From: Eledone cirrhosa
Lineage: Eukaryota
NCBI GenBank assembly: GCA_964016885.1
Contig: OZ024741.1
Coordinates: 212,164,001 to 212,228,000 of the forward strand
DNA: 64,000 nt
Direction: 5' to 3'
Part shown: positions 4,713 through 57,094 of the stretch, one piece after another
Position numbering within the stretch: the first letter of the stretch is position 1
How the letters are laid out: each line of letters begins with the position of its first letter
Made by a program: the position numbers and the translations under genes
Notes under the pieces: model-generated
Seen by the model: only the letters and a program-made list of their open reading frames with translations
Told to the model about the DNA's origin: nothing
Database searches by the model: none

Positions 4713-5228
4713 ATTTCGTTTCTGAATTTGTTTAGCAAGATTCTATAGCTGAACATATGTGTTGAAACCGATATTGTTATGCTTTGGGAAGGTCATGTTG
4801 CCAATAAGAAACACACGCACCAGTTGCTTTCACTCAAATTTATTATAAAATATATTTATATATTTAAGAATTTATAAATTTCCGGTTGGTTGGTTCCACA
4901 ACCGGACGGTTGTTCATATATTGTCAAGGTTCTTTCGTCACACATTCTGTGACCTCTTCAGTAACTGGAGATTCTTTCCTTTGTTTTGTTTTGTTTTGTT
5001 TTGCACAAAAACAAAGAAAAGAATCCCTAGTCACTGAAGAGGTCACATAATATGTGATGAAAGAACTTTGACAATATATGACCAACCGTCCGGTTGCGGA
5101 ACCAATCAACCAACCGGAAATTTATAAATTCTTAAATTTATAAATTTAATTTATAATAAATTGGAGTGTAACAACTGGTGCGTGTGTTTCTTATTGGCAA
5201 CATGACCCTCCAAAAGCATAACAATATA
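4713..5228. mobile_element. Head-to-head inverted pLTR pair (family A-related), ~225 bp arms, one HHR-like motif per arm
   Basis: 4771-4990 is the reverse complement of about 5005-5228. Plus-arm HHR GTCA-CTGAAGA-..TCACATA/TATGTGA..-GAAA-GAAC-TT-TGAC at 5030-5072. Confidence 0.85.
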
Positions 5229-5291
5229 TATATATATATGTATATATATATATATATATACGCACATACGTATACATGCATATATATATAT

Positions 5292-5647
5292 CAAGCTGTG
5301 CTTGAAGCGAACTCTTATTTCTTTTCTATTATAAGTTGAGCTAACTTATGCAGCTTCGTATGCAAATGAGATTAATCACCTCATTTACACAGAAGAGATA
5401 ACTATATATTCTCGGCTGTCTTCCAGTCCAGCACTCGCAATCGGTGGGAGGGATCGGCCTGACGAAGGCCAGTTAAGCCTGAAATGCATAGACGGCTGTC
5501 TCCCTTGCTTCTGCTGGACATCACCAGAGCCCCCCCCCCCCCGGTGTTTGCATAGCTAGGGCTTCCTAAAACCGTATTCCATTGGAGATACGAAATTTAT
5601 ATACATATTGTATAAAGCTATGCTTGAAGCGAAATCTTATTTCTTTT
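5292..5647 (+). mobile_element. Family B unit (~322 bp monomer plus short direct repeat) in (TA)n
   Basis: AAGCT(G/A)TGCTTGAAGCGAA(C/A)TCTTATTTCTTTT at 5293 and 5615. Confidence 0.8.
5453..5495 (+). ncRNA. Minimal hammerhead ribozyme, intact core
   Basis: TCGGC-CTGACGA-AGGC cagttaa GCCT-GAAA-TGCA-TA-GACGG. Confidence 0.8.
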
Positions 5648-5671
5648 ATATATATGTATATATATATATAT

Positions 5672-6394
5672 ATATCACAGGTATATATTAAGTTAGGAAC
5701 TCAAAATAGTCTCTTTCAACAAAATAGCTCTAAGAAAGAGATATTTCAGAGCCGTATATTATAATAGAATATAAAAGAAAAACGAACACAGATATATACA
5801 TATATGTGTTCAAATCGTTACGATTTGAATACATATATGTATATATCTGTGTTCGTTTTTCTTTTATATTGTATTATAATATACGGCTCTGAAATATCTC
5901 TTTCTTAGAGCTATTTTGGTGTAAAAGACTATTTTGAGTTCCTAACTCAATATATACCTGTGATATATTCGGCTCCGTTAATTTGTTGAGCTATTTAAAA
6001 TGTCGAATAAACCTCCTGTCTGCTATTTTTAGTGTAAGTTTGTGAGATGCGCTATGATGTCATGTGCGCTAAAATGTTTATATATAACACACTATTCAGT
6101 TTCATAATATACTTAGAATTGTCTAGGATACTAATTCATCACACACTGATGAGCTTGAATTGGTAATTCTATTCACAATTAACTTTGCGAAACAACAACA
6201 AGTTGTCTGGGTGATGGGTAGTTACCACAATTCCGGATTGTATTTATTTTCTTAATTCTTTCTTAAATTGAAACAAGCAAACCCTATCGTCTATAGTTAG
6301 TATTCTTTTCACCTTAGCGAATACAGTCCCTTACGATTTGAACACTTATATGTATATATCTGTGTTCGTTTTTCTTTTATATTCTATTATAATA
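5672..6394 (+). mobile_element. ~513 bp HHR unit (family G) with 3' partial tandem repeat and ~145 bp 5' inverted copy
   Basis: Palindrome centred at about 5819 (5672-5967); TTACGATTTGAA..TGTGTTCGTTTTTCTTTTATATT at 5818 and 6331. Confidence 0.85.
6137..6216 (+). ncRNA. Hammerhead ribozyme (type I)
   Basis: CATCACACA-CTGATGA-GC...GC-GAAA-CAAC aacaa GTTG-TC-TGGGTGATG (8/9 stem I, GUC site). Confidence 0.85.
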
Positions 6395-6721
6395 TATATA
6401 TATATATATATATATATATATATATATATATATATATATATATATATATATATATATATATATATATATATACACTTTTGTAAAAGATACGTGGAAATTT
6501 CCAAGAGTAAGTGCAGTCAGTCCATAGGACGAGTTTGTTATAAATAATTACAACAGTGACATAAACAGGTACTCAAGTTTCATTTTTTGATGATAGCTGG
6601 GCGTATCTAATCCATAAAGGTTGTTGGTTTCATCAGATAGAACGAAATTTGTGTACATGTTCATGTCACTGTTGTAATTATTAATATATATATATTATAT
6701 ATATATATATATTTTTTTTTT

Positions 6722-54100: not shown

Positions 54101-54299
54101 ATACATACTTACATACACATACATACATCCACGCTTACAAATACGAAAAATTATGGGGGGGGGAGGGGGATTAAAATTATTAGTGGGAAATAGTAACTAT
54201 AGGTTTCAAGGAACATAGAATATTAATCTGCATTTAAATCATAATATGTGTTTACATAGTAGTGTCAGTATTAGGAAATGGTATTTGTAAGAAAGAAGG

Positions 54300-55170
54300 C
54301 TAAATTATGCATTTTAATATAAGTAGACTATTAATTATAGGTTAATTAAAGTAAAAATAGTTAATATATTAATTTCTAAGGTGTATACTACTTAGGTTTA
54401 TAATATTTAAAGCGGAATTTTGAAGTTAAACAGTAGTAGAGTATTAATTATAGCATAACTAAATTAAAAATATTAACATGATGGTATCAATTTTAGGAAA
54501 TGAATTTTGTAATAGGGAAAGCCAAATCAAGTATTTCATCGGTAGTAGAATATTAATTATAGGTTAACTAAAAATTATATATTAATTTCTATAGTATATG
54601 TTAATTAGGTTTATAATAATTAAAGCAAATTTTGTATTTTATCTATAGTAGAATACAATTATAGGTTAACTAAATTAAAATTAATCTATATATTTATTTG
54701 TAAAGAATATATTAATTAGGTATATATTTAAAAGTTTTTCTCAGTTTATGATTACATGATATTCTGCAATCCATCTGTATTAGAATTTTAATTTTAAGCT
54801 AACTAAATTAAAATTATAGGTTAACTAAATTAAAATTAATTTATAAATTAATTTCTAAATTGTATATTAATTAGGTTTATAATATTAAAAAGTATTTCTC
54901 TGTTATTGATTACACGATATTTTGTTATATTTCATCTGTAAAGGAATTTTAATAAAAGGTTAAATAAACAAAAATTAATCTATATATTAATTTCCAAAGT
55001 ATATATTAATTATGTTAATAATATTTAAAAGTTTTTCACAGTTTATGATTACACGATATTTTTTAATTTCATCTGTAGTAGAATTTTAATTAAATTAAAA
55101 TTATAGGTTAACTACACTTAACTAAATTTAAATTTAAGTTTAAATTATAGGTTAACTACAGTTAACTAAA
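54300..55170. repeat. AT-rich degenerate ~120 bp repeats
   Basis: Recurring TTATAGGTTAACTAAATTAAAA and TTAGGTTTATAAT motifs. Confidence 0.7.
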
Positions 55171-55710
55171 TTTATAGATACATTTTTATAAATATGCTGA
55201 GTCTGACACCCTCCTTAATTACTTACTCCCTTACCTCCTTTTAATTCTGCATCTAGATGTAAGTGTGTGTGGCCGTGTTTATGTGTGCGCCTCAATATCC
55301 ATATAGTTATAATAATAATATATACGTATGTGTGTGTGTGTGTGTATATATATGTGTGTGTGTGTTCGTAGGTATGTGTGTGTTTATGTATATATGCGTG
55401 TGTGTGTATGAATGTATGTATATGTGTGTATATATGTGTGTATATATATATGTATATGTATGTATATTTCGTCATACTCTGTCATACAGAGACATTAGCC
55501 CTGAATTTTTATATTAACATACACTTTTTCGACATGCCTATGCATCTGAACATACATTTTTATGCATATCTGTGAACGAAGTTACTTACATATATACACA
55601 CACCTAACTGTATTTTCTTGATGAATTTTTATGTATTTCATTGGTCTATTTAAAATCTGTTCCCAAACAGACCTGTAATTTTGAATTGTTGTTATTATCA
55701 ATAAATATAC

Positions 55711-55853
55711 TTCATTATTTCTGAAGACAGCATATATATGTGATGGTATGTATATTCTCTTTGATAGTTTGTATAATTTTGTACATAGATCTTTTGAATA
55801 TGCATGCCAATTCTAACACATATATGTCCTAGAAACGATCGTTAAATAATGAA
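55711..55853 (+). ncRNA. Hammerhead ribozyme with 104-nt stem II (mirror copy 52682-52824 minus)
   Basis: TTCATTATTT-CTGAAGA-[..CATATATATGTG...CACATATATG..]-GAAA-CGATCG-TT-AAATAATGAA; perfect 10-bp stem I. Confidence 0.85.
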
Positions 55854-57094
55854 CTTTTTTTGTTTAATATAAGGAACTGTTTCATTGTTTTATTCATTAT
55901 TTTTTTTATATTTTATATATATATATAGTTTTTAAAGAATTTCCTTTTCTTTAAATCCATCAACCAATGAACTCCACCCATCCCAATTACCACCCTCTCC
56001 CACCACCAGAAAGGGTATATATACGATCACATTACTTGAACAGTCGGCTTCCTGATGATTTCTTGCGAATGAAACAGTTCTAGTCCCGTATTAGTCATTT
56101 CTATATTAAATATATATATATATATATATATATATATATATATATATATATATATATATATATATATATATATATATATATTATAGTTGTTGTAGGGCTG
56201 CAATTAAATGCGTCTGTAGGCGGTATGCCGTTTGAGCACTCGATGCTCACGCAGAGCAGAGTACATTATTATAGATAACGAGGAATCAGTAATGCATCAA
56301 AACACTATTTAATAACATATTACATATGTTTCACTGTCGATTCGCTAGAGGCAAGATCTGTTACAGATCGAACCTATATATACATAGACACTCTTATATT
56401 AACATACTTTTGCTCATAGCTTCGTACTTACATGCGCACTTATTCTTTTACTCACACACACACACACACATATATATATATATAACTGGGCAGGGAAAAC
56501 GGGGAAGAGAATTGATCCAAATGTAGGTGGCGAAAGTTATGGAGGATCGTCTTCTAATACAAAAAATACTTTAATACACTAACAAACACATGTAGAAATA
56601 CATACACACACATATATGTGCATTATCATTCAACGGCGCGATTTGAATTCAGAGTTACGGCCCTCGCCATTCTGAGTTCAAATCCCGGCGAGGTTAACTT
56701 TGCCCTTCATCCTTACGCGGTCGATAAAATAAAGTACCCGTAATGTACTGGGTATTTGCTAGCCTTGTGCCAAAAGTAGAAACAATTATCATTCAACGAT
56801 TGTTATATGTATATTTTTCACTCCTATTTTTCAACATAGTTGAATTTCTATACGCACATGAACAAACTAGACACGTTGCTCCAACACATACTCACATACA
56901 TAGAAGAATTAAATACAATACACACACTCTCACATCTCTTTCATCCTCTTCTAATCTGTGAACCCCATCTATGTGTTTCCTCTATTCATGATGAAGTACT
57001 AACGTTCAATATGTTTCTCTTTCAAGCATGAAACTAATAAAACTACTGTTATTGTTTCACTGTGTTCCTCTGTTTTGTACACACACAAACATAC

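What the first reader, a model, noticed from the sequence alone, without database searches (positions are those of the whole stretch)
4713..55916. Inverted repeats are consistently head-to-head with ribozyme sense pointing outward
Seen: at 4771-5228, 9078-9409, 31978-32268, 39821-40166, 49186-49304 and 52619-55916 the left arm carries the HHR on the minus strand and the right arm on the plus strand. One arm is usually longer, and the outer ends stop at TA repeats. Inference: these are products of one mechanism, such as twin priming from both strands of a nicked (TA)n or cDNA fold-back, rather than DNA-transposon TIRs. They would be misannotated as MITEs.
Basis: partly seen in the sequence, partly recalled or inferred. 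Interest (0 to 1): 0.7.

Follow-up and report, generated by a model that had tools for sequence, protein, structure and literature searches.

The report
Twin-primed head-to-head Penelope insertions
The hairpins are the known head-to-head ends of Penelope-like jumping genes inserted in TA repeats, and because almost every insertion has exactly one long-ended and one short-ended arm, they were likely made by copying the element's RNA from both broken DNA ends at two fixed start points rather than by one copy folding back.

Summary
All six loci are real inverted repeats read outward, each from a different repeat family. In five families the arms lead into Hydra-clade Penelope-like (PLE) ORFs; the sixth has a Neptune/Nematis-type linker. 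Among 600 listed genome places, close opposite-strand neighbours are divergent in 137 of 146 cases. Corrections: two loci lack a whole ribozyme in one or both arms, and outer ends are fixed at two sites per family.

The head-to-head layout with a one-sided tail is published PLE anatomy (Arkhipova 2013; Craig 2021). The statistics add to it: 179 of 181 resolved pairs have one tailed and one tail-less arm. In 70 of 175 the tail-less arm reaches more than 20 nt further 5', and in 37 the arms overlap by 5 nt or less. Fold-back or self-priming cannot make those, so two primings, one per target end, is the best model. Inner ends pile up at an initiator-like site, not at the ribozyme cut. This scan reached the same reading on other DNA. 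Empty alleles and RNA starts could not be observed.

The parts
4716..4774 (-). Locus 1 tail (59 nt, family F1), ending at (TA)n
4771..4987 (-). Locus 1 tailed arm, 5'-truncated pLTR; minimal type I hammerhead core 4933-4961 with the cut triplet mutated
5003..5227 (+). Locus 1 tail-less arm; hammerhead 5034-5069 matches the descriptor
9079..9241 (-). Locus 2 tail-less arm (F2, Hydra-type); hammerhead 9118-9173; inner end at the family hot spot -162
9245..9407 (+). Locus 2 tailed arm; hammerhead 9314-9369 with palindromic helix III; inner end at -162
9408..9502 (+). Locus 2 tail (95 nt), here on the right; in tandem copies it runs on into the ORF leader
31813..31978 (-). Locus 3 tail (166 nt, F3, Hydra-type)
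31979..32047 (-). Locus 3 tailed arm, truncated in helix II (3' half of the hammerhead only)
32047..32268 (+). Locus 3 tail-less arm, reaching about 150-170 nt further 5' than the tailed arm; hammerhead 32183-32222 (CCGAAGA core, also seen in the other family copies printed)
39735..39978 (-). Locus 4 tailed arm with ~95 nt tail (F4, Hydra-type); hammerhead core 39882-39923
39979..40164 (+). Locus 4 tail-less arm; includes the 30 nt spacer, which matches family sequence upstream in the sense direction (read by eye); GAAA mutated to GACA at 40102
49109..49245 (-). Locus 5 tailed arm with 80 nt tail (F5, Hydra-type); 3' half of a U3:A8-variant hammerhead only
49247..49305 (+). Locus 5 tail-less arm; 3' half of the hammerhead only
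52485..55134 (-). Locus 6 tailed arm (137 nt tail 52485-52621, F6, Hydra-type) extending ~2.5 kb into the long 3' UTR; hammerhead 52682-52824 with ~105 nt helix II
55166..55916 (+). Locus 6 tail-less arm; hammerhead 55711-55853
2647..2798 (.). Further F5 head-to-head insertion, tail on the right; tail-less arm reaches further 5'
8834..9025 (.). Further F5 head-to-head insertion, tail on the left, sharing a TA tract with locus 2
48925..49085 (.). Further F5 head-to-head insertion, tail on the left, sharing a TA tract with locus 5

Best explanation
These are 5'-truncated, head-to-head insertions of endonuclease-bearing Penelope-like retrotransposons in (TA)n, each with one tailed and one tail-less arm, likely made by twin priming of one element RNA from both ends of a cut target. 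Shown here: family identity, outward orientation, two fixed outer ends per family, the one-tail rule, variable inner ends, and arms that are closer to each other than to typical family copies. Inferred steps: (1) the GIY-YIG domain cuts both strands of a TA-rich site with a stagger; (2) the two 3' ends each prime reverse transcription, one at the short start site and one at the long start site 59-166 nt downstream, each helped by 2-6 nt of TA-like pairing; (3) each cDNA stops at random or runs off the RNA 5' end (likely the pLTR promoter start), which gives the abundant 200-600 bp MITE-sized hairpins; (4) the two cDNA ends are joined by short microhomology or with filler DNA. The hammerhead points outward only because it lies in the copied pLTR; its cut site does not set the junction.
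For: ORFs with RT (YRDD) and GIY-YIG-like C-terminus in pLTR-ORF-pLTR tandems; RT fold by Foldseek on a low-confidence model. Discrete 3' ends. 179 of 181 resolved pairs are one tailed plus one tail-less, 2 tailed-tailed, 0 tail-less pairs. Check without my BLAST chaining, exact end patterns of F3: all 35 opposite-strand neighbours within 12 kb were one of each and divergent, 18 of 18 beyond the fetched range; genome totals 779 short and 979 long ends. Tail-less arm reaches >20 nt further 5' in 70 of 175, tailed arm in 25, within 20 nt in 80; in 37 the tailed arm starts inside the tail or within 5 nt of it. Equal ends exceed shuffled expectation, 80 vs 54, as expected if both copies share one RNA 5' end. 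Partner divergence is below the family median in 107 of 115 pairs; 18 variants are private to both arms of 15 pairs. Microhomology averages 1.8 nt vs 0.75 nt simulated in 38 junctions without filler. One insertion inside an F4 copy (L336) shows an 8-13 nt target duplication. In vitro, a Poseidon PLE cuts and extends both strands and starts at two sites that bound the tail (PMC11167929).
Against: No biochemical or RNA data for these families. Overlapping arms from one RNA need strand displacement or ordered copying, which is untested. The in vitro paper saw no strand difference in start-site use and reported starts not homologous to the cut DNA, whereas these families show short TA homology. 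No pile-up of tailed-arm ends at the short start site (about 13 of 175 within -17..+22, similar density to the rest of the tail; counted by eye). Shared private variants show no A>G excess (3 of 18), so one RNA versus two sister RNAs is not settled; post-insertion gene conversion could also share variants. 16 of 175 pairs end at equal positions away from hot spots, several with long palindromic overlap. The general TSD test was weak (29 of 194 vs 11-22 shuffled). 67 of 105 junctions showed apparent filler, partly inflated by mismatches to the reference. 258 TA-flanked arms were not paired by my pipeline, and loci were chosen by exact pLTR motifs, which favours seeing truncated tailed arms.
Confidence: 0.7

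Rival explanations
1. Dual priming: two RNA molecules from the same source copy, held in an asymmetric protein dimer (possibly paired through the palindromic hammerhead helix III), one copied from each start site.
For: Avoids copying one RNA stretch twice; explains 25 of 175 pairs where the tailed arm is longer. Helix III is palindromic in F2, F3, F4 and F6; minimal hammerheads are proposed to act as dimers (PMC4209133), and a PLE protein dimer was predicted (PMC11167929).
Against: Needs an extra rule to forbid like-ended pairs on a symmetric (TA)n target (179 of 181). Arms are nearly always from the same subfamily, and equal inner ends are in excess.
Confidence: 0.17
2. cDNA fold-back (or the published self-priming on an antisense template): one cDNA folds at a short palindrome and copies itself, giving the inverted arm.
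For: Proposed from palindromes at inverted junctions in PMC3846280. Here 16 of 175 pairs end at equal positions off the hot spots, and arms share variants. 99 of 175 pairs are geometrically compatible.
Against: In 70 of 175 the tail-less arm holds >20 nt that the tailed arm lacks while the tailed arm holds the tail, so neither can be the other's template; in 37 the arms overlap by 5 nt or less. Window loci 3 and 4 are of the first kind.
Confidence: 0.1
3. MITEs or foldback DNA transposons with long TIRs and a TA target duplication, mobilised as units.
For: Median size 384 bp in 175 pairs, TA flanks, recurrent sizes such as ~245 bp motif spacing in F2.
Against: Ends are asymmetric (one tail); inner junctions differ between loci even at equal size; sizes run continuously to 9.5 kb and into RT ORFs; no transposase link was seen (not searched specifically).
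Confidence: 0.02
4. Assembly artefact (fold-back long reads).
For: Perfect palindromes are a known read artefact (recalled).
Against: Arms differ by up to 10% in the window, ends are asymmetric and family-defined; a run's contig spans flank and outer junction of one insertion with no difference (record 9; the run may be the assembly's own sample).
Confidence: 0.01

Closest known systems
EN+ Penelope-like insertions with an inverted 5'-truncated pLTR and a one-sided tail (Adineta Pen2a, D. virilis Penelope, Naiad; PMC3846280, PMC8557442, PMC2377424)
   Same: Head-to-head inverted copy, tail at one end, partial tandems, hammerhead in the pLTR, simple-repeat targets, an 8-13 nt duplication in the one readable case.
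   Different: Tails here are 59-166 nt rather than 30-40 nt. The one-tail rule is near absolute (179 of 181) rather than 'optional' or 'often'. The published self-priming model does not fit at least 70 of 175 pairs.
Hydra clade of C-terminal EN+ PLEs (Craig et al. 2021, section 11)
   Same: RW and DKT motifs, CxCX5C linker, CxxC and CxH motifs, (TA)n targets and hammerheads in F2-F6.
   Different: Units here are 3.1-7.1 kb against 'generally <3 kb'; the motif reads RWI/RWR rather than RWK; no tree was built.
Anolis Poseidon PLE in vitro (PMC11167929)
   Same: Two RT start sites bound the tail; both target strands are extended; ribozyme cleavage is not needed.
   Different: There the starts are not homologous to the target, while here both starts carry 2-6 nt of TA-like sequence. 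That paper does not address how the inverted copy forms (in the two of four parts read).
LINE-1 twin priming and dual priming (as described in PMC2837659)
   Same: Second target end primes internally; two inverted fragments join head to head with microhomology inside a target duplication.
   Different: In L1 it is a variant with a variable internal site and an internal deletion between fragments. Here it is the rule, both sites are fixed, there is no poly(A), and arms usually overlap.

Membership tests
EN+ Penelope-like elements | Single ORF with RT and C-terminal GIY-YIG endonuclease linked to the repeat | tested here: met
   ~760-830 aa reading frames (stop to stop) in F2, F3, F5, F6; partial in F4 (583 aa) and F1. 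RT fold by Foldseek, model pLDDT 53. The GIY-YIG assignment is by motif reading: Pfam and PDB sequence search gave no significant hit.
EN+ Penelope-like elements | pLTRs formed by partial tandems | tested here: met
   pLTR-ORF-pLTR units in F2 (3.7-3.9 kb), F3 (4.2 kb), F5 (3.1 kb), F6 (6.6-7.1 kb). No tandem was recovered for F1 or F4.
EN+ Penelope-like elements | Inverted 5'-truncated copy and tail at one end | tested here: met
   179 of 181 pairs; 35 of 35 by exact patterns.
EN+ Penelope-like elements | Type I minimal hammerhead in the pLTR | tested here: met
   Core and helices readable in all six families, with U3:A8 (F5) and U4C (F3) variants. No hammerhead family among the best 150 of 207 Rfam matches listed. 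Cleavage activity untested.
EN+ Penelope-like elements | RT groups with PLE/telomerase RTs in a tree | not tested
   No reference PLE proteins were available from a tool; no tree built.
Hydra clade (F2-F6) | RWK, DKT, CxCX5C linker, CxxC and CxH motifs, no CCHH, (TA)n targets | tested here: met
   Alignment A1 against the description in PMC8557442 section 11. RW and DKT in the four complete ORFs (third residue I or R, not K); CNC-x5-C, CxxC and CxH in all five. Absence of CCHH read by eye.
Neptune/Nematis (F1) | CX2-5CxxC linker before GIY-YIG | tested here: inconclusive
   CX4CxxC present in one frameshifted partial copy (L223); Neptune and Nematis not told apart.
MITE / DNA transposon | Symmetric fixed TIR ends, uniform internal junction, constant TSD | tested here: not met
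   Asymmetric ends, locus-specific junctions, sizes 93 bp to 9.5 kb.
Twin priming (L1 sense) | Both primings on one RNA molecule | tested here: inconclusive
   One-tail rule, equal-end excess and shared variants favour it; no edited-base signature.
Twin priming (L1 sense) | Target-site duplication from a staggered cut | tested here: inconclusive
   One clear 8-13 nt case (L336); bulk test 29 of 194 vs 11-22 shuffled; no empty allele seen.

The most novel reading that the evidence does not exclude
Twin priming is the normal, programmed integration route of these Penelope-like elements. One RNA is engaged at two fixed start sites, each marked in Hydra families by a short RCTCY signal 6-13 nt downstream. 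Each site is used exactly once per insertion, and run-off at the pLTR promoter mass-produces MITE-sized hairpins. This would replace the published self-priming model and explain tail and inverted pLTR in one step.
Probability: 0.5. Interest if true: 0.65.

Novelty: new member of a known kind. Interest (0 to 1): 0.4.

Why it matters
How PLE tandem and inverted structures form is named as an open question in PMC8557442, and the only model I found in print is self-priming (PMC3846280). The near-absolute one-tail rule and the non-overlapping arms discriminate between models and give exact predictions for the existing in vitro PLE system. Practically, six motifs alone have 123,778 exact hits in this 3.0 Gb genome, and three quarters of sampled pairs are under 590 bp, so many short TA-flanked hairpins here are retrotransposon ends rather than DNA transposons. 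The anatomy itself is not new.

Tried and rejected
DNA search of the own genome with a locus 2 arm returned nothing because common words are skipped; exact short patterns were used instead. Rfam at E<=1 listed only microsatellite-driven miRNA-type matches below gathering score among the 150 of 207 shown. Pfam found nothing for 3 proteins; the PDB profile search gave only E>0.8 matches; no protein-atlas result was obtained.

Empty alleles: contigs of six runs laid on locus 3 and on L225 showed no joint skipping an insertion among the listed rows; repeats swamp the tables, so this is uninformative. No RNA holder was listed, so the transcription start was not tested.

Ribozyme-cut pile-up: 5 of 324 inner ends within 3 nt of the predicted cut (3 of 52 in F1, 2 of 272 in F2-F6); seed arms in four families could not end there because the search motif spans the cut. 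A>G editing signature: 3 of 18 shared private variants, not enriched. Bulk TSD test weak. A genome-wide gapped count of whole pairs was not obtained. A left-arm bias in the window (5 of 6) is not general: 99 left-tailed vs 80 right-tailed.

Literature: 'Penelope + twin priming + inverted' gave 2 unrelated papers (listing only); 'Penelope-like + both strands + target-primed + palindrom + fold-back' gave 1 review (listing only). Subscription papers (for example Arkhipova 2006, Evgen'ev and Arkhipova 2005) are not in the library and may discuss mechanism; supplements were not read.
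Full report
Observation. Self-BLAST of the masked window and direct arm alignments confirm all six inverted repeats, with arm identities of 90-100%. Each belongs to a different high-copy family (F1-F6, numbered by locus). Exact family motifs occur 2,299, 15,714, 2,141, 44,017, 52,348 and 7,259 times in the 3.0 Gb genome. In the first 100 listed places per family, adjacent opposite-strand hits are divergent in 86 of 91 cases within 1 kb and 137 of 146 within 8 kb; the convergent cases were not inspected individually. A de novo scan of 264 kb around the window gave 58 TA-anchored inverted-repeat hits (some duplicates or non-PLE); only 2 had both ends at TA, and most had one end at TA and the other a tail-length away.

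Ribozymes. Each family carries a type I minimal hammerhead: palindromic helix III in F2, F3, F4 and F6, a 105-nt helix II in F6, a CCGAAGA core in F3 and a U3:A8 core in F5. In the window, both arms of locus 5 and the left arm of locus 3 hold only the 3' half, and one arm each of loci 1 and 4 has a core or cut-site change. Activity was not tested. Cervera and De la Pena already reported such motifs in PLE pLTRs, the U3:A8 variant, and pairs 100-700 bp apart on opposite strands (PMC4209133, first of four parts read).

Identity. Long copies run into single ORFs of about 760-830 aa in pLTR-ORF-pLTR tandems for F2, F3, F5 and F6; a 583-aa partial ORF was found for F4. Their alignment shows RW, DKT, YRDD, CxCX5C, CxxC and CxH, matching the Hydra clade description (PMC8557442, section 11). 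F1 has YVDD and a CX4CxxC linker in one broken copy, the Neptune/Nematis type. Pfam and PDB sequence searches were blank. A low-confidence model (pLDDT 53) matched reverse transcriptases including telomerase. The GIY-YIG call rests on motif reading.

Anatomy. Outer ends fall at two discrete sites per family, a short end and a long end 59-166 nt further on. In tandems the tail continues into the ORF leader. Both sites begin with 2-6 nt of TA-like sequence. In 1.23 Mb of fetched DNA, 181 head-to-head pairs were resolved: 179 one tailed plus one tail-less, 2 tailed-tailed, none tail-less on both sides. 258 TA-flanked arms stayed unpaired, many apparently through chain breaks, region edges or long arms (output partly cut). 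An exact-pattern check in F3 that does not use my chaining gave 35 of 35 opposite-strand neighbours as one of each and divergent, 18 of 18 outside the fetched range.

Mechanism tests. In the 70, each arm holds sequence the other lacks, so neither can be a fold-back copy of the other. Selection by pLTR motifs inflates the 70:25 ratio but not the existence of these cases. Equal ends exceed a within-family shuffle (80 vs 54). Partners are closer than the family median in 107 of 115 pairs and share 18 private variants in 15 pairs, without A>G excess. Junctions without filler average 1.8 nt of microhomology against 0.75 simulated (38 of 105 junctions; the other 67 show filler or reference mismatches).

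Inner ends. They cluster at one point per family: within -3..+10 of an initiator-like A in 26 of 56 (F2), 24 of 39 (F6), 46 of 78 (F5) and 7 of 24 (F4) arms. I chose these motifs after seeing the hot spots, and the likeness to the animal initiator is recalled, so this is a lead. The hot spot also appears in arms joined to unequal partners, so it does not depend on a palindrome. Only 5 of 324 ends lie at the predicted ribozyme cut. One F6 hairpin inside an F4 copy shows an 8-13 nt target duplication (L336); the bulk TSD test was weak and no empty allele was seen.

Model. The target is symmetric, yet each insertion uses each start site once. The simplest reading is one RNA engaged at two sites, with each cut target end priming at one of them. 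The cDNAs stop at random or at the RNA 5' end and are joined head to head. Cutting, priming, displacement and joining are inferred. Two sister RNAs in an asymmetric dimer remain possible, and fold-back may explain some of the 16 equal-ended pairs away from hot spots. A short RCTCY motif lies 7-13 nt after the short site in all five Hydra families and 6-8 nt after the long site in the four with tandem context; it is untested.

Known versus new. Head-to-head inverted pLTRs with an optional one-sided tail are described in PMC3846280 (passages), which calls head-to-head the most frequent arrangement and proposes self-priming on an antisense template, and in PMC8557442 (passages, section 11 and first part of section 13). 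PMC11167929 (two of four parts) shows two start sites and extension of both strands in vitro. L1 twin and dual priming are taken from passages of PMC2837659; PMC2377424 and PMC13282606 were seen as passages and the retrozyme preprint as its first part. My searches found no paper applying twin priming to PLEs, but key subscription papers are not searchable. Earlier notes of this scan reached the same reading on other DNA; they are not evidence. Verdict: known anatomy in new families, with a useful quantitative test that favours twin priming over the published model.

Noticed in passing
tails of F2-F6 (e.g. window 9421-9425; L055, L240, L226, L229): An RCTCY motif sits 7-13 nt after the short start site in all five Hydra-type families and GCTCC 6-8 nt after the long site in the four with tandem context; absent from the F1 tail. 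Candidate RT-positioning signal.
   Followed up: partly
window 169-1017: 3' end of another PLE (GIY-YIG-like reading frame 169-492, then pLTR to a TA tract); its inverted partner lies about 1.9 kb before the window start, 99.9% identical over 835 nt.
   Followed up: partly
window 5676-6391 and 39218-39425: Further TA-anchored inverted repeats of other families; 39261-39295 is a type I hammerhead with a full helix III on plus.
   Followed up: partly
window 31469-31660, also 13833-14180, 16275, 19075, 28084, 29208, 34954, 37345, 39475, 56651, 60172: A very abundant ~190 bp dispersed repeat (SINE-like, not classified), also abundant in runs of other organisms.
   Followed up: no
window 20276-22862 and 25144-25633: Tandem arrays of 32 bp (81 copies, 92% matches) and 47 bp (10 copies).
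   Followed up: no
L221-L222 (G000:C1:56973500-56985800): A 9.5 kb F3 insertion in which both arms contain a full 4.2 kb unit; one ORF is intact and the other frameshifted.
   Followed up: partly
L072/L073 and L089/L090: F6 junctions carry short templated repeats as filler, resembling polymerase theta end joining (resemblance recalled).
   Followed up: no
L055:6953-7945: A 331-aa frame with helicase motifs, read by eye as Helitron/PIF1-like, next to an F2 tandem.
   Followed up: no
window 8834-9502 and 48925-49305: Separate insertions stack in the same TA tract, so TA runs at element ends are reused as targets.
   Followed up: no
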